NCBI GenBank assembly: GCA_000004985.1
Contig: GG738885.1
Length of the DNA stretch: 64,000 bases
Source: Naegleria gruberi
Taxonomy: Eukaryota
Strand: one strand, 5' to 3'
The translations under genes and the position numbers were made by a program. A model generated the notes under the pieces. That model saw only the letters and a program-made list of their open reading frames with translations, was not told the origin of the DNA and searched no databases. Within the stretch, counting starts at the first letter, position 1. The number at the start of each line of letters is the position of its first letter. Below are positions 26,151-34,535 of this stretch, in pieces.

Positions 26151-27374
26151 CTAGTTGAATTTGAAAAATTGTTGAAAGTGATCCTTAAGTAACTCTTCAC
26201 ACTTTTCTCTGCTTAATTCCTCCTCTATGGTCGCACCTATTTCGGATAGAAATGATTTTACAATCAATAAATTGTCATTCATGCTCTCTATTGATTGGAA
26301 ATCAACAATTGGTCTTGCATCCAATTCCAATTCGTCATCAATTAATTGGAAGGTAAATGTTGTAGACCACACAAATTTGCACACCTCCTCAATACCAGAT
26401 GATACTCTAGGTGTGCTGGTACTGCTGATTTCTTGACCAATTTTACTGCCACTACTGCATAACTTTTCTGTTCTGTAGTGAACTACCTCTATTGAGGAAT
26501 TATTAAAGTACAATTCTACAACCCACATTCTTCCATCAAATAATCGAACCTTTCCTCCAAACTCTGATTTGAATTTAGATTTGACATCCATCACTGATTG
26601 TGAGATTGATTCTTGTTGCATGCAACTCAATATCTTTAAAATGTTTTTAAAAGTATTCAATCTGTGGGGTTTTAATTCCAATTCCTTCCAAACATTCTCC
26701 ATTGTTGAAATCATATCATTCTTAATAGTTTCAACAGATAGTTCCTCACCCTCATCCTGACTATTAGTATTGAATAAATCTGCTCGGCAACACTCTACTA
26801 AACCTAGATTTTGAAATAATTGACCAAAAAGTCTCAGAATTGCCTCTTCAATTTCATAATTTGATGGAGAAGATGATTCAACAAGTTCAATTCCATCAAC
26901 TTTCATTTTTGGAATTAATCTCACAATATCTGATGCTATTAATTTAAAAGTATCACCAGTCATGGATACATCACTCGCATTATCAATCAGATCAAATCTT
27001 GATGATATTATTGCATTCTCAATTTTGCTATTTTTCGAAATGGTAACATTATCCTCTGGTTGATCCTCTACTTTCTGATATTGAAGTGAATTTGATAGTG
27101 TTCTAACTGATTTTCGTATAGTTTCCGATTGATTAGCAATCATTTTGGCATTCGAATCAGAGACATCATCCACCACTACAAGACTTTGTTTTAAATCAAT
27201 TGTAATAATTGATGAATCGTTAGAATTAGAATGAGAGTGAGTTCCTGTTGATGATGATGAAGATTTATCAACGTGTGATTGTTGTTGTTGTTCCTCACCT
27301 TGATCTAATTCATCCTCCTCCTCTTGATCTTCCTTTCGGTTAGAAGAACAAACAACCATAGCTTTGAGAAACAT
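26151..27374 (-). CDS. Hypothetical acidic protein, 407 aa, single exon
   Basis: ATG at 27374. Acidic/poly-Q N-terminus and no confident domain assignment. Confidence 0.35.
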   Translation of the reverse strand: MFLKAMVVCSSNRKEDQEEEDELDQGEEQQQQSHVDKSSSSSTGTHSHSNSNDSSIITIDLKQSLVVVDDVSDSNAKMIANQSETIRKSVRTLSNSLQYQKVEDQPEDNVTISKNSKIENAIISSRFDLIDNASDVSMTGDTFKLIASDIVRLIPKMKVDGIELVESSSPSNYEIEEAILRLFGQLFQNLGLVECCRADLFNTNSQDEGEELSVETIKNDMISTMENVWKELELKPHRLNTFKNILKILSCMQQESISQSVMDVKSKFKSEFGGKVRLFDGRMWVVELYFNNSSIEVVHYRTEKLCSSGSKIGQEISSTSTPRVSSGIEEVCKFVWSTTFTFQLIDDELELDARPIVDFQSIESMNDNLLIVKSFLSEIGATIEEELSREKCEELLKDHFQQFFKFN

Positions 27375-28024: not shown

Positions 28025-28453
28025 ATGGGTAAAGTCAGAACCAAGACTGTCAAGAAGGCATCAAAGATCATCGTCGAAAAGTATTACAATTCTCTTACTA
28101 CCGACTTCGATACCAACAAGAAGGTCTGTCAAGAAATCGCCACCATTCCAACTAAGAGAATGAGAAACAAGATTGCCGGTTTCACTACTCACTTGATGGC
28201 CAGAATCAAGAAGGGTACCGTCAGAGGTATCTCCTTGAAGTTGCAAGAAGAAGAAAGAGAAAGAAGAATGGACTACGTTCCAGAAGTTTCTTATGTCGAT
28301 GAAATTATCAACAGAGGTATTGAAGTTTCTGATGAAGTCTCTGACATGTTGAAGACTATTGGTTTCGGTGATTTGAAGAGCGTCACTAAGGTCTCTCACT
28401 CAACAGGCCACCACCAACACCACAATAAGAGAAGAGGTAACAAGTCTTATTAA
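28025..28453 (+). CDS. rps17: 40S ribosomal protein S17 (eS17)
   Basis: [21 protein letters not shown]...[34 protein letters not shown] is near-identical to eukaryotic eS17. Intronless, 142 aa. Confidence 0.95.
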
Positions 28454-28486
28454 ATAAATCCAATATAAAACTATTTAAAATTACCT

Positions 28487-30104
28487 TTAATTCTTTTTTA
28501 AAATTATTATTTGTCTTCCTATTCTAGAATCATGAGTTAAGTGCATATGGAAGAATCGTTGATGTAGAGTAAAGTTGTGTTGTTGGATGAGAAATTCGGC
28601 AACAGATTGAACACTGTGATGATCATACATTACTACATAATGTGCTTCTTTGTGTGTCTTGGATACTTTCTGTACAAACTCTAGAGGATTATTGTAGAAT
28701 CTATCAGCTTGTGAATCATCTCCATCAAAAGGAGAGCAGTCCAAGTGGAATAGCTTAATATGTCTCGTGGATTGTCTTCCTTCAAATAAGAATGCATGAC
28801 CAGGCAAATGGTGACAAGGCATTAATAAATGAACTACCATATCCTTTTCTTGCCCAGTAACAGGCAATTGTTGTTTGAAGAATTGTTGACTCTCACTTCT
28901 CAAATGATTGACCACCTTAATTGGAGCACTTTGATGAATTCTTCCAAGATAAAATACAGCACCCAGTTGAACAATGGTCATAATTACAAGTAAGAGTCTG
29001 TATCCTCTATCAGTGATATGAACCTTATTGTGAATAAAATCTCCAATTGAAATAAAACAGAGTGGTAAAATTGGATAGATAAATCTAAACTCCTTATGAG
29101 CTTGTAATGAATAGACCAATACTGGTAAGAGAATGACACAATTAAGTTTCCAATATTTTCTACTATATTCCCTATTCACAAAATTAATCCACACATAGAG
29201 AGGGAAATGTGTTAATAACATGACAGGAAATCCCTGAGTAAAATACCAATGCCATGGTTGAGTTCCATATACTAATAAAATCAAGAACAGTAATTATTTA
29301 AAAGAAATGATGAGAAAACATACAATGGGCAAGATTTTCAACAATGTTAAATTTCAAAAAGTTCAAAATTACAATGGTGAATTGTCCATACATATTTGAG
29401 TCAATCTGGATTGAAATTGCAAGCCAAATTATACTATTCAATTAAATATTCCGTTTCCAATAATTATTTTAAGCTCTTAATTATATAATTTCACTTACAC
29501 ATATCCAATGAATGTTAATAAATATTTGAAAATATTCTTCTCCTTAAATAATTGAAACAAAAACAATGGAATATAAATAATGGTACTTGTTGGTCTCACA
29601 ACACATCCAAATCCTGCAAAAAACATCCAGTAATGCCTAAATTTCTTTGAATGATCATGATTATGATGATGGGAGTGACATTTATCATCGTGACATTCAT
29701 CTTGTTGAATTAGATCAACAGGGAATAAATAAATAGCAATTAACACAATATTCATTTCCATAGTATTTGAAAAAGTCCTCACTCCACAATATAAATTAAA
29801 CCAATTAGTCAATGAAATCAATAACTACAAATTCCACAATTGCAATTAAATTAACACATACAGTCAAATAGGCAGTCATTTTCGATTTTAAATACTTGGC
29901 AACAATTAAAAAGAGAAAATAATCTGACAATGCTGTGCACACTGACTGAACAGCAATTGGCATCCAATACGATAAGAAACCCATCAATGATTCATCATTT
30001 CCATATAATTTCTCCACAAAATCCATCACATAATATCCACTAGATAGAATCATTGGATGAAGATATCCTCGGAGAGAGTGTTTAGCATCCCATTCCCATG
30101 GTAT
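28487..30104 (-). CDS. GPI mannosyltransferase 3 (PIG-B / Gpi10 family, GT22); at least 4 exons, 5' exon not found
   Basis: Exons are approximately 29862..30104 (IPWEWDAKHSLRGYLHP, matching the conserved TWEW..LRSY..P), 29499..29824, 29324..29433 and 28487..29271. Introns are 37, 65 and 52 nt. Motifs QPWHWYFTQGFPV and LLMPCHHLPGHAF match PIG-B (HPWHWYFSQGFPV; MPCHSTPYYSH). The first in-frame ATG is at 30053, but the conserved coding sequence runs up to the TAA at 30105-30107. Confidence 0.7.
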
Positions 30105-31382
30105 TTATGTGGATGATCGGGAAAGTTCTCTAGCTGCCAAATATTTTGGATGGCTTCTATTGATATTTGTCACAAAGAAAGTTCCCTTAACATCCTTCAT
30201 CTTGACAAGATTTTCCTTTTGCATTTGTTTGAGGAATTTACTCCACTTCTTGTATGTTGATTTCTTAATATCCAAAACTATGTCCTCGCTAAATTCAAAC
30301 ATTTTAGTATAGAATCCACTTCCTTCCATTGGTAATTGATCATCCTCAACACTACTCTTTAAAGCAGTGAGGAAGTATGATTCCAAGAGAGAGTCCATCT
30401 CTTCTGGCTTGATATCAGAAGAACCTTCACCACTTGGCTCTGCTTCATCATCACTACCTTCTACAGTTGACTTTCCTTCTGTAGCCAATGGCGTCACTTC
30501 AACCTTTTCAGTGGTTGGCTGTTCACCATCTTCATCTTCTTCCACAGATAAGATTTCAATAATTTGTGATGTAAATCCAACTGGTTGAGAGTATGTCGAA
30601 GGGGCATGATTCACGCCAAATTGCCACATAAAGTCATTGAAAATATGAACTGTTTCAAAACATTTCCCCTTATCTGCTTTTGAAAATTCATCAAAATCCA
30701 TAATCATGTCACCGATGGCAAATGGGATGGGATTTCCTCTCACTTGAATGCTTCTAATGTCACCCTTCTTGAATGGACCAATTCCTCCATGACTTCCCTT
30801 ATTATTCAATCTTTCTCCTCCAATTAAATTCATATTTTGATTCTTTTGATTTTTACTCACACCAGGTTTCATTAAATCAGCACCTTGCAAAAGATAATGA
30901 GAAACTGGTTGAGCAATATAAATAGTATCCACTAAATTAGGTGCAATTTGAAGAGCAAATATTGTTGGATAGTAAATTTCCTCTTTTTCAATCGAAAAGA
31001 ACATTGGAACATTATCTACAGTAATTACATTAAAAGTTTGAACATCTGATGCTGCTCTCAATTGTTGTTTTTGCAATTGTTGTTGTTTCTTTTTCTTATT
31101 AGGAACATTCTTTCCGACCTGAATTTCCTCTAAAATTGCCTCCGAAGCAGCAGTTTGATGATAAATAACAAACTTTGATAATTCCACATTTTGATTCTTT
31201 GTTGGTACGAGTAATCTCCATGGATTTATTTCATCACTACTAGCACTACCACCCTCTTCATCATCAGCATTAGAAGGTGCTGGAATATTTCGATATTGTT
31301 CTTGTAATTGTTTTAATAATTTTCTACGATCCGAAGATTTTAAATTGTGTGATTGAGTTTGCTTGAGTGTCTTTTTAAACAT
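30105..31382 (-). CDS. eIF2D / ligatin homolog, N-terminal ~420 aa only (no SWIB/SUI1 region in the ORF)
   Basis: MFKKTLKQTQSHNLKSSDRRKLLKQL... matches the eIF2D N-terminus (MFAKAFRVKSNTAIKGSDRRKLRADV). The central region FLTALKSSVEDDQLP...DIKKSTYKKWSKFLKQMQKENLVKMK matches human FLHALKCRVKKADLP...DIKKSSYKKLSKFLQQMQQEQIIQVK. The ORF ends about 230 residues short of the human protein. Confidence 0.7.
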   Translation of the reverse strand: MFKKTLKQTQSHNLKSSDRRKLLKQLQEQYRNIPAPSNADDEEGGSASSDEINPWRLLVPTKNQNVELSKFVIYHQTAASEAILEEIQVGKNVPNKKKKQQQLQKQQLRAASDVQTFNVITVDNVPMFFSIEKEEIYYPTIFALQIAPNLVDTIYIAQPVSHYLLQGADLMKPGVSKNQKNQNMNLIGGERLNNKGSHGGIGPFKKGDIRSIQVRGNPIPFAIGDMIMDFDEFSKADKGKCFETVHIFNDFMWQFGVNHAPSTYSQPVGFTSQIIEILSVEEDEDGEQPTTEKVEVTPLATEGKSTVEGSDDEAEPSGEGSSDIKPEEMDSLLESYFLTALKSSVEDDQLPMEGSGFYTKMFEFSEDIVLDIKKSTYKKWSKFLKQMQKENLVKMKDVKGTFFVTNINRSHPKYLAARELSRSST

Positions 31383-32060
31383 TTTTTTACTTTCTTTTAT
31401 TAGTATATTAATATTAGAATAAGTTCAATTTTACATTTGTACAACTACTTCAAAACAATTTTGTAAGTTGGTGTTAAACAATTCACCTTAACATCAACAA
31501 TATCTATTTGAATCATCATTTTGTATTCATCTTCCAAAAGGTTTGAAAGCCTTCAAAAAAAATATTAAAAAATATTATTGTATAAAAAATTACCCATAAC
31601 ATTTAGTAGAATAAAATGTTCGGTCTGGGGGCAATTAATAAGCGAGGAAGTGCTTCTTGTTTTTAAACAGTTGTCTTACCATTCTTATAAGCAGACAATG
31701 TCTTTCGCCTTTTACTAAAGACATCCGTGTGAGAATGGACAAATAGATAACGCTAATTTTTTCTGCCTCTTCTCAAGAGGTCTGTTCTTAATAGAAATTC
31801 AACCTTTTTTCTTTCGGCCTGATTGGCTTGATTTCATATATATTTGAGCTAATGTTCAATTGCTATTTCTCCACAAATTCAGGAATTACAATTTCTTGCG
31901 TAATAAGAAATATTTTTAATGATTGACAGTTGCCAAAAAGCGCATATTTTAGGAGTTTAAATTGCATCACTAACGAAATCTTTTTGAATGGGCAGCTAGT
32001 AACAGGTCAATCAATGGAGTGTCAGTGACGCCTCATGTTTATACTAACTGCATCAAAAAA

Positions 32061-34535
32061 ATGAAAATATCGAAACAGCTGCTACAGCTTACATGCTTAC
32101 TTGCTTTATTTCTTGGTGCAATATGTCTTCACTCAGTTTGTCAAATCTCCATCTTCACAACAGCCCAAACAACACAGTACACACGCTCCACACTACTCGT
32201 GGATACTTCAATACACGATGTAGCCGTAAGTTCCACAACAGATGAAGTGTACTTTACTTCGTATTTAAAAGTTCAAAGATTATCAAAAAGCGGTCAATTC
32301 ACAACTATAGCAATACATTACATGCATGCAGATGGCCTCGCTCTTTATTCGAATAGTATTGATGATGTTGAAGTTTTTTTCACTGATACCAACCTAATAC
32401 GAAGAACGAAGAATGGTACTAACACAGATATTGCAGGAAGTTTGACAAGTGGTTATAGTGGTGATGGAGGATTGGCAATTAATGCACTGTTGGCTACCTC
32501 AATGGGAGTTACCATCTCTCCTAATCGTGAAATTTACATTGCAGATACTGGCAATAGCGTTATTAGAAAGATAAATAGTACTGGCTACATTCATACTATT
32601 GCAGGAACGGGAACATCTGGACACAGTGGTGATGGAGGGTTAGCAGTAAATGCCAAACTCTTTCACCCTAGGACAGTTACAGTCACCTCAGAAGGTGAAA
32701 TTTTAATTGCAGATACAAGTAACCATGTTATTCGAAAGATTACAAAAGATGGGTATATTTTTACAATAGCAGGTAAACCTAGCACTTCTGGTTATGGTGG
32801 CGATGGTGGATTGGCAAAGGATGCCTTATTATCGTCTCCCCAGTGTGTTAGAATAAGCCCAAGTGGTGACATTTTTATTGTTGAGTATGGGGGTGCTAGA
32901 ATTCGTAAAATTAATTCTAAAGGAATAATCTCTACATTTCTAGGTACAGGACAACAGAAGTTAAGTGGTGATGGGTTAATAACAAACCAAACAACATTGA
33001 ATTACCCAGTTGCTATTGCTTTTGGATTGAATGGAATTATTTATTTTGCAGAATCTGGAGGACTTAGAAAACTAACACCGATTTGTGTGGAAGGAAGTAT
33101 TCTAATGGAGAATGGATTGTGTGAATATCAGTGTTTTGGATATACTAATCTTAATTCGAGCATTGTTTGTTCAGGTAAAGGTGAATGCATTTCATTTAAT
33201 GTATGTGAATGTAAGGAGAATTATTATGGTAGTAGTTGTGAGAAGTTCAAATGTTTTAATGTTGAAAACAATAGCTCGAATGTTTGTTCATCTCATGGAA
33301 TGTGTGTATCTCATAATAATTGCTCTTGTATTGAAGGATATCATGGTTTGAATTGTGATTTATTTGAATGTAATGGAATACCTTCAAATGATTCAAAAGT
33401 TTGTTCAGGAAAAGGAAATTGTACTTTATTTAATCAATGTTTATGTGAATTGGGTTATTTGGGAAATGACTGTCAACAATTCTATTGTAATTCCATTCTT
33501 AATGATAATTCAAGTGTTTGCTCTTCAAAGGGACTTTGTCTTTCACCAAATAATTGTTCATGTTTTGACAATTTTAGAGGAGATAATTGTGAAATGTATG
33601 ATTGTTATGGTGTTGCAAGAAATGATTCGAGTGTCTGCTCCTCTCATGGTATATGTACTTCTTTTAATAATTGTTCATGTCAAGTAGGATATTATGGAAA
33701 TAATTGTGAATTAACATCATGTTTTGGTGTTGAGAAAGTAAGCTCACATGTTTGTAATGGAAATGGAACTTGTGCATCATTTGACATGTGCAATTGCTTT
33801 GACAATAGCAGATGGTTTGGAAAAAATTGTAATTTGACTTATTGCTTTGGTAACTCATCTGATGATGTCAATGTTTGTAATTCGCATGGAGATTGTTTAA
33901 ATTATGACATTTGTCACTGTAGACCTCACTATATTGGTAATCAGTGTCAATTCAGATTCAATTCTCAACAAATGAATTTTACATTCAATAGTTCAATTGA
34001 TTATTTGGAAGATATCACGACAATTTTACTTCTCTCCATTCAAGATTTACAATTTATTGATTATTATTCAAGAAAGAAGATTGATTTCAATGTCACTTTC
34101 TTTCTTAATAACCAATTTTTATGGAATCAAGTTACACAAGAAGAATTGCGTTCACCTTTAAGTTTCTCGCTTCCATCTTCTCTTTCTAATGGTTCTCTAT
34201 TGGCTTCAATTACTTTGAGTTTTAATTCAACTTTAATTTCATTAGAAACTGTCACATTATCTCCTCTATTAATAATCCGAAAAGAGAAAGCATCAGTATC
34301 AAATTCAATTCCTTTACCAAAGACATCCATTTCACAACCGAAAAAGGATAACGAAGCAATTTCTTCCACATCTGAAAACACTACTGGAATAATTGTTGTT
34401 GCTGTTGTTGTACCAGTGGTCACTTTAGGTGCTTTAGGCGTGGGAATCGCTGTTATTGTGTTAGTTGTTATTTTAATGAAGAAGAAAGCAGCCACAAGCA
34501 TGGTCGCAAATACTAATAATTTTGAAATGAAGTGA
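32061..34535 (+). CDS. Type I membrane protein with NHL repeats followed by a long run of EGF-like cysteine repeats (teneurin/tenascin-like), then one TM
   Basis: The track ORF begins at a GTG; the first ATG at 32061 gives signal peptide MKISKQLLQLTCLLALFLGAICLHSVC. NHL units (SGYSGDGGLA..., ADTGNSVIRKI..., ADTSNHVIRKI...). About 8 CxxxxC..C EGF-like repeats. TM VVAVVVPVVTLGALGVGIAVIVLVVIL. Confidence 0.6.
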   Translation: MKISKQLLQLTCLLALFLGAICLHSVCQISIFTTAQTTQYTRSTLLVDTSIHDVAVSSTTDEVYFTSYLKVQRLSKSGQFTTIAIHYMHADGLALYSNSIDDVEVFFTDTNLIRRTKNGTNTDIAGSLTSGYSGDGGLAINALLATSMGVTISPNREIYIADTGNSVIRKINSTGYIHTIAGTGTSGHSGDGGLAVNAKLFHPRTVTVTSEGEILIADTSNHVIRKITKDGYIFTIAGKPSTSGYGGDGGLAKDALLSSPQCVRISPSGDIFIVEYGGARIRKINSKGIISTFLGTGQQKLSGDGLITNQTTLNYPVAIAFGLNGIIYFAESGGLRKLTPICVEGSILMENGLCEYQCFGYTNLNSSIVCSGKGECISFNVCECKENYYGSSCEKFKCFNVENNSSNVCSSHGMCVSHNNCSCIEGYHGLNCDLFECNGIPSNDSKVCSGKGNCTLFNQCLCELGYLGNDCQQFYCNSILNDNSSVCSSKGLCLSPNNCSCFDNFRGDNCEMYDCYGVARNDSSVCSSHGICTSFNNCSCQVGYYGNNCELTSCFGVEKVSSHVCNGNGTCASFDMCNCFDNSRWFGKNCNLTYCFGNSSDDVNVCNSHGDCLNYDICHCRPHYIGNQCQFRFNSQQMNFTFNSSIDYLEDITTILLLSIQDLQFIDYYSRKKIDFNVTFFLNNQFLWNQVTQEELRSPLSFSLPSSLSNGSLLASITLSFNSTLISLETVTLSPLLIIRKEKASVSNSIPLPKTSISQPKKDNEAISSTSENTTGIIVVAVVVPVVTLGALGVGIAVIVLVVILMKKKAATSMVANTNNFEMK

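What the first reader, a model, noticed from the sequence alone, without database searches (positions are those of the whole stretch)
30040..30120. eIF2D ORF lacking its SWIB/SUI1 half runs head-to-tail into a GPI mannosyltransferase lacking its first exon, in the same frame across one TAA
The eIF2D/ligatin homolog (31382->30105, minus) aligns with human eIF2D only through the central winged-helix region (DIKKSTYKKWSKFLKQMQKE) and stops at TAA 30105-30107. That is about 230 residues short of the human protein, and no SWIB or SUI1 domain is encoded anywhere downstream. Immediately after that TAA, in the same reading frame, comes the conserved PIG-B motif IPWEWDAKHSLRGYLHP (human LTWEWTERLRSYTYP). 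PIG-B coding continues through the downstream exons. No acceptor AG precedes this exon, and the ~50 N-terminal residues expected for PIG-B (TM + PDEYWQSLE motif) are absent. Either both genes are truncated by a rearrangement or assembly error, or an undetected non-canonical or trans-splicing arrangement supplies the missing parts.
Basis: partly seen in the sequence, partly recalled or inferred. Interest (0 to 1): 0.55.

Follow-up and report, generated by a model that had tools for sequence, protein, structure and literature searches.

The report
One-kilobase deletion joining two Naegleria genes
In this Naegleria gruberi reference scaffold about 1 kb is missing between two neighbouring genes, removing the end of eIF2D and the start of the GPI mannosyltransferase PIG-B; both missing pieces turn up in other N. 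gruberi data, so this is a deletion allele or an assembly defect, not a new gene arrangement.

Summary
The window is Naegleria gruberi. On the minus strand a 425-aa eIF2D ORF (31382-30105) runs straight into a GT22/PIG-B gene that lacks its 5' end.

- **Ancestral layout.** N. fowleri, N. lovaniensis and two metagenomic Naegleria all have a full-length eIF2D (648-682 aa where complete, with SUI1). PIG-B follows 4-116 bp downstream, then RPS17e where the contig reaches that far. The window lacks the equivalent of 840-1000 bp.
- **The missing pieces exist.** The last 131 aa of N. gruberi eIF2D (SUI1 domain, 71-73% identical to the orthologues' C-termini) sit on an unplaced 3,525-bp scaffold of the same assembly. 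An independent 892-bp metagenome contig is 99.5% identical to window 30126-29511. It carries an intact PIG-B first exon with ATG, first transmembrane helix and the ADEYYQ motif.
- **The junction.** Identity stops at 30126, so the breakpoint is 30127/30126, not the TAA. The last 5-6 eIF2D codons are PIG-B exon 1 read out of frame. A further 1-nt deletion (T, between 30106 and 30105) creates the in-frame TAA and the "same frame" appearance.

The intact exon has no intron here, so trans-splicing is not needed. Most likely this is a hemizygous deletion allele; an assembly or cloning artefact is the main rival. Interest is low.

The parts
30127..31382 (-). Native part of the eIF2D gene, codons 1-419 (the last base of codon 419 and the Leu420 codon CTT, 30126-30123, could come from either side of the junction). 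Encodes the Pre-PUA, PUA and eIF2D winged-helix domains.
   Evidence: Pfam hits. 63-67% identity to residues 1-421/451/454 of the Naegleria orthologues. The DNA alignment keeps eIF2D homology up to ...GCAGCTAGAGAACTT.
30123..30127 (-). Deletion junction. Identity to the intact PIG-B exon begins at 30126. ACTT (30126-30123) may be microhomology shared by both parents; this is inferred.
   Evidence: blastn of L006 against the window: the match runs from L006 276 to 892 and window 30126 to 29511, 614/617 identical, with nothing upstream. Alignments A3 and A4.
30105..30126 (-). PIG-B exon-1 sequence (codons 45-52, HFPDHPHI). In the eIF2D frame it reads (L)SRSST plus TAA, so it supplies the foreign tail and stop codon of the 425-aa ORF.
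30105..30106 (-). Site of a 1-nt deletion: a T is missing between these two bases relative to the intact sequence. It breaks the PIG-B frame, creates the TAA in the eIF2D frame, and puts IPWEW in that same frame.
   Evidence: The single gap in the L006-window alignment. The same 1-nt shortfall appears against N. fowleri, N. lovaniensis and the ENA species.
29862..30104 (-). Remainder of PIG-B exon 1, from Ile53 (IPWEW...) to the 5' splice site.
   Evidence: Pfam GT22 profile positions 43-125. Gene model.
29499..29824 (-). PIG-B exon 2, preceded by a 37-nt GT-AG intron (29861-29825).
29324..29433 (-). PIG-B exon 3, preceded by a 65-nt GT-AG intron.
28487..29271 (-). PIG-B exon 4 with stop TAA, preceded by a 52-nt GT-AG intron.
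   Evidence: Joined to the L006 5' exon, the 539-aa protein covers GT22 profile positions 2-413 of 414 at 280 bits.
28025..28453 (+). RPS17e gene, convergent with PIG-B. It serves as a synteny anchor.
   Evidence: ORF. Same position and orientation in N. fowleri and N. lovaniensis.
26151..27374 (-). 407-aa ORF, the next synteny anchor. The N. fowleri and N. lovaniensis genes in the same position are 407 and 410 aa.
   Evidence: The match rests on position and length only; the sequences were not aligned.

Best explanation
The window carries a copy of the ancestral Naegleria eIF2D-PIG-B tandem from which about 1 kb has been deleted.

**What was removed**
- eIF2D codons from about 420 to the stop, roughly 230 codons, which include the SUI1 domain.
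- The intergenic spacer, which is longer than 142 bp in N. gruberi.
- PIG-B codons 1-44 plus 1 nt.

The join lies at 30127/30126, possibly at a 4-nt ACTT microhomology, and a further 1-nt deletion lies 20 nt away.

**Preferred mechanism**
I think this is a real allele-specific (hemizygous) deletion in the sequenced strain. It would have arisen by microhomology-mediated or error-prone end joining. The shotgun assembler took it as the main path, and reads from the intact allele were left in an unplaced 3.5-kb scaffold.

**Consequences for this copy**
- The eIF2D promoter drives a 425-aa protein: 419-420 native residues with the Pre-PUA, PUA and winged-helix domains, then 5-6 residues and a stop read out of frame from PIG-B.
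- The PIG-B remainder has no promoter, no ATG, no first transmembrane helix and no first-loop acidic ADEYYQ motif. It should be a null.
- The organism's working eIF2D and PIG-B would come from the intact copy.

**Shown versus inferred**
- Shown: the deletion relative to the intact sequence, the exact right-hand breakpoint, the 1-nt deletion, and the existence of both missing parts in N. gruberi data.
- Inferred: heterozygosity, the repair mechanism, the microhomology, and the functional consequences.
For: - **Organism.** The ORF is 100% identical to an N. gruberi protein on a 362,555-bp scaffold.
- **Ancestral architecture.** N. fowleri has eIF2D of 680 aa, a 116-bp spacer, GT22 of 577 aa, RPS17e on the opposite strand, then a 407-aa gene. 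N. lovaniensis has the same order. Two ENA Naegleria contigs have the eIF2D 3' end followed by the PIG-B ATG 18 bp and 4 bp later.
- **Size.** The segment absent from the window equals 999, 971 and 841 bp in three relatives.
- **Right breakpoint.** Contig L006 matches window 30126-29511 at 614/617, and its upstream 275 bp has no match in the window. That upstream part holds the ATG at L006 position 143, MKVFGASLFLIIFLITFRLMSSFFITTYFSADEYYQGIEIAHSLH.
- **Complete gene on reconstruction.** The L006 5' exon joined to the window exons gives a full GT22 match, profile 2-413 of 414.
- **eIF2D C-terminus.** P0017 (EFC35459.1, NAEGRDRAFT_60091) is 131 aa with a SUI1 domain and lies on a 3,525-bp scaffold. 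It aligns with the last 119-130 residues of the orthologues at 71-73% identity (N. fowleri 553-680 of 680, reaching the very C-terminus). The N-terminal halves are similarly diverged at 63-67%.
- **No long-term decay.** 487 PIG-B codons and three canonical introns are intact.
- **Real allele rather than artefact (my reasoning, not a tool result).** A consensus built at several-fold Sanger coverage should rarely follow a single aberrant clone. A main path plus an orphan 'bubble' scaffold is the usual outcome of a heterozygous indel.
Against: - I could not retrieve the DNA of the orphan scaffold or any N. gruberi reads. Heterozygosity is therefore untested.
- It is not shown that the orphan scaffold overlaps this locus.
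- The P0017 model starts at an internal Met, so the orphan contig may be short or gapped.
- About 100 eIF2D residues (N. fowleri 452-552) remain unaccounted for.
- A 1-nt error 20 nt from the junction would also fit low-quality sequence.
- L006 comes from a metagenome. It proves the intact exon for an organism 99.5% identical to the reference, not for the sequenced culture itself.
Confidence: 0.5

Rival explanations
1. Assembly or cloning artefact. The strain has only intact copies. The consensus across 30.1 kb follows a chimeric read or a plasmid or fosmid clone that suffered a deletion in E. coli. The correct reads were left in the 3.5-kb orphan scaffold.
For: - The missing eIF2D C-terminus is present but unplaced in the same assembly.
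- The remaining coding sequence of both genes is undamaged.
- A single-base indel lies 20 nt from the junction, as expected for poor-quality sequence.
- Both genes are conserved in every other Naegleria examined.
- From general knowledge: AT-rich inserts (the window is 34% GC) are prone to deletion in E. coli.
Against: - There are no Ns or gaps in the window.
- The junction has at most 4 nt of shared sequence, too little for a spurious read overlap.
- From general knowledge: the consensus would have had to follow one aberrant clone against several-fold coverage of correct reads, which assemblers normally reject.
Confidence: 0.33
2. A fixed rearrangement. The ~1-kb segment was excised from this locus and now lies elsewhere in the genome, on the orphan scaffold. 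eIF2D is then truly split into a PUA/winged-helix protein and a separate SUI1 protein, analogous to the MCT-1/DENR pair, and PIG-B is disrupted.
For: - The assembly annotates two separate proteins: 425 aa with Pre-PUA, PUA and WH, and 131 aa with SUI1.
- From established knowledge: MCT-1 and DENR together resemble a split eIF2D, so a split could in principle work.
Against: - The 425-aa ORF ends in out-of-frame PIG-B sequence with a stop made by a 1-nt deletion. That is a scar, not an evolved terminus.
- The 131-aa model starts at a Met that is internal and conserved in the full-length orthologues.
- About 100 residues between the two pieces are unaccounted for.
- PIG-B would lose its start and its catalytic-loop motif, yet its other 487 codons show no decay.
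- An organism 99.5% identical has the intact PIG-B exon.
Confidence: 0.1
3. The locus is complete as it stands. The missing PIG-B N-terminus and eIF2D C-terminus are supplied by trans-splicing, a non-canonical (for example AT-AC) intron, or stop-codon readthrough.
For: Only the raw appearance: conserved PIG-B coding sequence directly after the TAA with no AG acceptor.
Against: - In the intact N. gruberi-type sequence and in four relatives, PIG-B exon 1 is one uninterrupted ORF from the ATG through IPWEW. There is no exon boundary here.
- PIG-B homology continues 22 nt upstream of the TAA in another frame.
- No U12-type donor (RTATCCTT) lies on the minus strand between 30.1 and 32 kb.
- Readthrough would fuse a cytosolic translation factor to a membrane protein that lacks its first helix.
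- From my own knowledge: spliced-leader trans-splicing has not been reported in Naegleria.
Confidence: 0.02

Closest known systems
Haplotype-specific indel with an orphan 'haplotig' scaffold in a heterozygous whole-genome shotgun assembly
   Same: One path through a structural difference sits in the main scaffold. Sequence unique to the other path sits on a very small unplaced scaffold (3,525 bp). Gene models on both are truncated.
   Different: Not demonstrated here, because the orphan scaffold's DNA and the reads could not be obtained. Allele fractions are unknown.
eIF2D (ligatin) compared with its split counterpart MCT-1 (PUA) plus DENR (SUI1)
   Same: The window ORF keeps the Pre-PUA, PUA and winged-helix portion, and the SUI1 portion is annotated as a separate 131-aa protein. 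On the surface this resembles the MCT-1/DENR division of labour.
   Different: All other Naegleria and Willaertia have one fused 644-728-aa protein. The split point here is a deletion scar inside a neighbouring gene, not an evolved gene boundary.
PIG-B / Gpi10-type GT22 (Alg9-like) mannosyltransferase
   Same: The downstream gene matches Pfam PF03901. Joined to the intact 5' exon, it covers the whole profile. A related hit is named 'phosphatidylinositol glycan class B' by JGI.
   Different: The window copy starts at profile position 43. It lacks the ATG, the first transmembrane helix and the ADEYYQ loop motif. I did not independently test assignment to the PIG-B subfamily as against ALG9, ALG12 or PIG-Z. 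The only PDB relatives found are ALG9 and a protein annotated just as 'mannosyltransferase', both at weak E-values.

Membership tests
eIF2D / ligatin | N-terminal Pre-PUA (DUF1947) and PUA domains | tested here: met
   Pfam Pre-PUA at 41.7 bits, above the cut-off. PF26292 PUA_eIF2D is precomputed for the identical protein P0001.
eIF2D / ligatin | Central eIF2D winged-helix domain | tested here: met
   PF25304 at 88.9 bits, residues 330-416.
eIF2D / ligatin | C-terminal SUI1 domain on the same polypeptide | tested here: not met
   Absent from the ORF and from the whole window. Present in all orthologues. In N. gruberi it is found only on an orphan scaffold (P0017).
eIF2D / ligatin | SWIB/MDM2-like domain between the winged helix and SUI1 | tested here: inconclusive
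   Not in the window ORF. Pfam also fails to detect it in the full-length Naegleria orthologues. N. fowleri residues 452-552 are either too diverged or not SWIB.
GT22 (Alg9-like) mannosyltransferase, PIG-B type | Full-length match to PF03901, including the first transmembrane helix and first-loop acidic motif (profile positions 1-42) | tested here: not met
   The window copy matches from profile position 43. The copy reconstructed with the L006 5' exon matches positions 2-413 of 414.
GT22 (Alg9-like) mannosyltransferase, PIG-B type | Own start codon and upstream intergenic region | tested here: not met
   The ATG lies at L006 position 143, 133 nt upstream of the breakpoint, and is absent from the window.
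GT22 (Alg9-like) mannosyltransferase, PIG-B type | Orthology to PIG-B/Gpi10 rather than ALG9, ALG12 or PIG-Z | not tested
No phylogeny was made.
Trans-spliced or non-canonically spliced gene | An exon boundary at the point where the coding sequence appears to begin | tested here: not met
   The intact N. gruberi-type exon and four relatives are continuous across this point. PIG-B homology extends upstream of the TAA.
Naturally split eIF2D (MCT-1/DENR-like gene pair) | Two genes, each with its own evolved start and stop, conserved in relatives | tested here: not met
   The relatives have a single fused gene. The stop of the N-terminal piece is a deletion scar. The C-terminal model starts at an internal conserved Met.

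The most novel reading that the evidence does not exclude
The deletion is fixed in strain NEG-M and the excised segment survives elsewhere. N. gruberi NEG-M would then express eIF2D as two separate polypeptides, a PUA/winged-helix half and a SUI1 half. That would be a recent natural re-creation of the MCT-1/DENR arrangement. The strain would also grow without a functional GPI mannosyltransferase III.
Probability: 0.05. Interest if true: 0.5.

Novelty: already known. Interest (0 to 1): 0.1.

Why it matters
The value is mainly in annotation hygiene. N. gruberi NEG-M is the reference heterolobosean in comparative genomics.

- Taken at face value, this locus would score the species as having an eIF2D without SUI1 and no usable PIG-B, and hence a defective GPI-anchor pathway.
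- It would also leave an orphan 131-aa 'SUI1 protein' in the proteome.
- The evidence here says all three are products of one ~1-kb deletion or assembly gap.
- A full-length PIG-B of 539 aa can already be reconstructed from the window plus contig L006.
- If the deletion is a real hemizygous allele, it is a small, well-defined structural marker for the strain. It carries no new biology.

Tried and rejected
- **U12/AT-AC intron ending at ATAC|C (30101).** I searched for RTATCCTT donors and found 10 in the window against 5.4 expected. None lies on the minus strand between 30.1 and 32 kb. The intact exon later made the idea moot.
- **Missing halves elsewhere in the window.** tblastn with four orthologues and blastn with L006 found nothing.
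- **DNA of the orphan scaffold or any independent N. gruberi assembly.** The look-up of encoding contigs has no record for P0017, P0001, the 265-aa PIG-B exon-4 ORF or RPS17e.
- **Metagenome scans.** Two JGI metagenome scans, one with P0017 and one with the winged-helix region, found no relatives.
- **Profile search with the eIF2D C-terminal alignment.** It returned only P0017 and not even the query proteins, because K-rich words saturated the candidate list. Absences are therefore weak evidence.
- **N. gruberi protein model containing PIG-B exon 1.** None was found. This says nothing about whether the orphan scaffold contains that exon.
- **Literature.** There were no hits for the two locus tags or for PRJEB11402/ERR1078381. 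I found nothing on a newer N. gruberi assembly. The Naegleria pangenome paper (PMC9928731) describes Naegleria as mainly heterozygous diploid with aneuploidy and loss of heterozygosity, but it gives no data on this locus.
- **PDB search for the GT22 subfamily.** It gave only weak hits: ALG9, plus a protein annotated only as 'mannosyltransferase'.
Full report
**What is in the window**

The window is 34% GC with no Ns. It comes from Naegleria gruberi: ORF 31382-30105 (-) is 100% identical to the NCBI predicted protein EFC41563.1 / NAEGRDRAFT_58788, which lies on a 362,555-bp scaffold.

- The 425-aa product has Pre-PUA and eIF2D winged-helix domains and no SUI1.
- Straight after its TAA (30107-30105), in the same frame, comes IPWEWDAKHSLRGYLHP. 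This matches Pfam Glyco_transf_22 only from profile position 43.
- Downstream I could build an undamaged gene remainder. It has four exons (30104-29862, 29824-29499, 29433-29324, 29271-28487), three GT-AG introns (37, 65 and 52 nt), 487 codons and a TAA stop.

The literal observation is therefore confirmed.

**What relatives look like**

The orthologues in N. fowleri (680 aa), N. lovaniensis (682 aa), an ENA metagenomic Naegleria (648 aa) and Willaertia magna (728 aa) all carry a C-terminal SUI1 domain. Their similarity to the window ORF ends at N. fowleri residue 451, within a few codons of the TAA.

Gene order is conserved.

- In N. fowleri, eIF2D is followed after 116 bp by a 577-aa GT22 gene. 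Then come RPS17e on the opposite strand and a 407-aa gene.
- N. lovaniensis is the same, with a 97-bp spacer.
- In two ENA Naegleria contigs the PIG-B ATG follows the eIF2D stop by 18 and 4 bp.
- The window has the same downstream neighbours: RPS17e at 28025-28453 (+) and a 407-aa ORF at 26151-27374 (-).

Relative to this layout the window lacks the equivalent of 999, 971 and 841 bp in the three relatives with full data. That amounts to about 231-233 eIF2D codons, the spacer, and the first 42-60 PIG-B codons.

**The missing pieces exist in N. gruberi data**

*eIF2D C-terminus.* A profile of the orthologues' C-terminal halves retrieved an N. gruberi protein, P0017 (EFC35459.1 / XP_002668203.1, NAEGRDRAFT_60091). 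It is 131 aa, has a SUI1 domain, and lies on a 3,525-bp scaffold. It aligns with the last 119-130 residues of the Naegleria orthologues at 71-73% identity; in N. fowleri it covers residues 553-680 of 680, and all share the terminal lysine run. That matches the divergence of the N-terminal halves (63-67%), so it is the eIF2D C-terminus and not a DENR or eIF1 paralogue.

*PIG-B 5' end.* A profile of PIG-B first exons retrieved P0019, from the 892-bp ENA metagenome contig L006 (ERZ929261 / ERR1078381).

- L006 is 99.5% identical (614/617) to window 30126-29511.
- Its first 275 bp have no match anywhere in the window.
- Those 275 bp contain 142 bp of non-coding sequence, the PIG-B ATG, the first transmembrane helix and the conserved first-loop motif: MKVFGASLFLIIFLITFRLMSSFFITTYFSADEYYQGIEIAHSLH.
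- The L006 5' exon joined to the window exons gives a 539-aa protein that covers the GT22 profile from 2 to 413 of 414 at 280 bits.

**Anatomy of the junction**

Identity with the intact exon begins at window 30126, the second base of the His45 codon. eIF2D homology runs up to ...GCAGCTAGAGAACTT. The breakpoint is therefore at 30127/30126. The bases ACTT (30126-30123) could belong to either parent, giving a possible 4-nt microhomology. This is an inference, because the intact N. gruberi eIF2D sequence at that point is not available.

The 22 nt from 30126 to 30105 are PIG-B codons 45-52 (HFPDHPHI). In the eIF2D frame they read (L)SRSST and stop. The tail and stop codon of the '425-aa protein' are thus out-of-frame PIG-B sequence.

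The window also lacks one T between 30106 and 30105 (CACATATAATACC in L006, CACATA-AATACC in the window). The same 1-nt shortfall shows against the three other species. That single-base loss creates the in-frame TAA and shifts IPWEW into the eIF2D frame. The striking 'same frame across one TAA' is an accident of two lesions.

**Splicing explanations**

In L006 and in all four relatives, PIG-B exon 1 is one uninterrupted ORF from the ATG through IPWEW. No acceptor site is expected here and none is missing. A search for U12-type donors found nothing relevant. Trans-splicing or a non-canonical intron is unnecessary and unsupported.

**Most likely mechanism**

A ~1-kb deletion removed the 3' third of eIF2D, the spacer and the first 44 codons of PIG-B in the assembled copy. 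The available tools cannot decide between two versions.

- **(a) Real allele-specific deletion.** The deletion is present in the sequenced strain's DNA, and the intact allele's reads were stranded in the orphan scaffold.
- **(b) Artefact.** The consensus follows an aberrant clone or read.

I favour (a), at about 0.5 against 0.33 for (b), for three reasons.

- A consensus built at several-fold coverage should rarely follow a single aberrant clone.
- The junction shares at most 4 nt, too little for a false read overlap.
- A main path plus a small orphan scaffold is the usual signature of a heterozygous indel. The Naegleria pangenome paper describes the genus as mainly heterozygous diploid with aneuploidy and loss of heterozygosity (PMC9928731).

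The nearby 1-nt deletion fits error-prone end joining, but it fits low-quality sequence equally well.

A fixed translocation with a truly split eIF2D (about 0.1) is disfavoured on four counts.

- The N-terminal piece ends in a scar.
- The C-terminal model begins at an internal conserved Met.
- About 100 residues between the two pieces are unaccounted for.
- The PIG-B remainder shows no decay.

**Consequences for this copy (inferred)**

The truncated eIF2D would keep the PUA and winged-helix half and lack the SUI1 half. The PIG-B remainder lacks a promoter, a start codon, the first helix and the first-loop acidic motif typical of GT-C enzymes (established knowledge). It should be non-functional.

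**Limits**

- The orphan scaffold's DNA and N. gruberi reads were unobtainable.
- Two metagenome scans were empty.
- No paper mentions these loci.
- L006 comes from a metagenome, so it proves the intact exon for an organism 99.5% identical to the reference, not for the NEG-M culture itself.
- Assignment of the GT22 gene to PIG-B specifically was not tested phylogenetically.

**Verdict**

This is an ordinary deletion or assembly defect in a reference genome. It is useful to flag for annotation but has low biological interest.

Noticed in passing
L006 (ENA ERZ929261, run ERR1078381, project PRJEB11402), 1-892: A metagenome contig is 99.5% identical to N. gruberi NEG-M over 617 bp: two substitutions (window 29970 G versus C, and 29584 A versus G, which changes Thr to Ala) plus the 1-nt indel. 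Either an N. gruberi-type amoeba was in that sample, or this is the other haplotype of the lab strain. The origin of the sample could not be traced.
   Followed up: partly
window 29825-29861 (-): The first PIG-B intron is only 37 nt (GTATGT...TTTGTAG). Homology of the flanking exons requires an intron whose length is 1 modulo 3 at this point. The sequence is identical in L006. Whether 37 nt is unusually short for Naegleria was not checked.
   Followed up: no
window 28453-28487: The convergent PIG-B (-) and RPS17e (+) genes have stop codons only 33 bp apart, so their 3' UTRs must overlap or be extremely short. N. fowleri and N. lovaniensis have the same tail-to-tail arrangement.
   Followed up: no
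L003 7101-7120 and L007 325-330: In two metagenomic Naegleria species the PIG-B ATG follows the eIF2D stop by only 18 bp and 4 bp. The spacer is 97-116 bp in N. lovaniensis and N. fowleri, and more than 142 bp in N. gruberi. This leaves almost no room for a separate promoter and hints at co-transcription or a promoter inside the eIF2D coding region.
   Followed up: no
window 29640-29700 (-): PIG-B exon 2 encodes a His- and Cys-rich stretch (QQDECHDDKCHSHHHNHDHSKK). In the Pfam alignment the exon's 99 matched residues span 86 profile positions, so part of it looks like a lineage-specific loop insertion. Not compared with the other Naegleria.
   Followed up: no
window 32019-34535 (+): An 838-aa ORF lies divergent from eIF2D. 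By eye it shows repeats resembling NHL or beta-propeller units (…GDGGLA…), then many Cys-rich EGF-like repeats and a C-terminal hydrophobic segment. It looks like a surface protein. Not analysed with any tool.
   Followed up: no
(database behaviour): The profile searches failed to return proteins known to be in the database, namely the query orthologues themselves and the 577-aa N. fowleri PIG-B. Absences from these word-seeded searches are therefore weak evidence.
   Followed up: no
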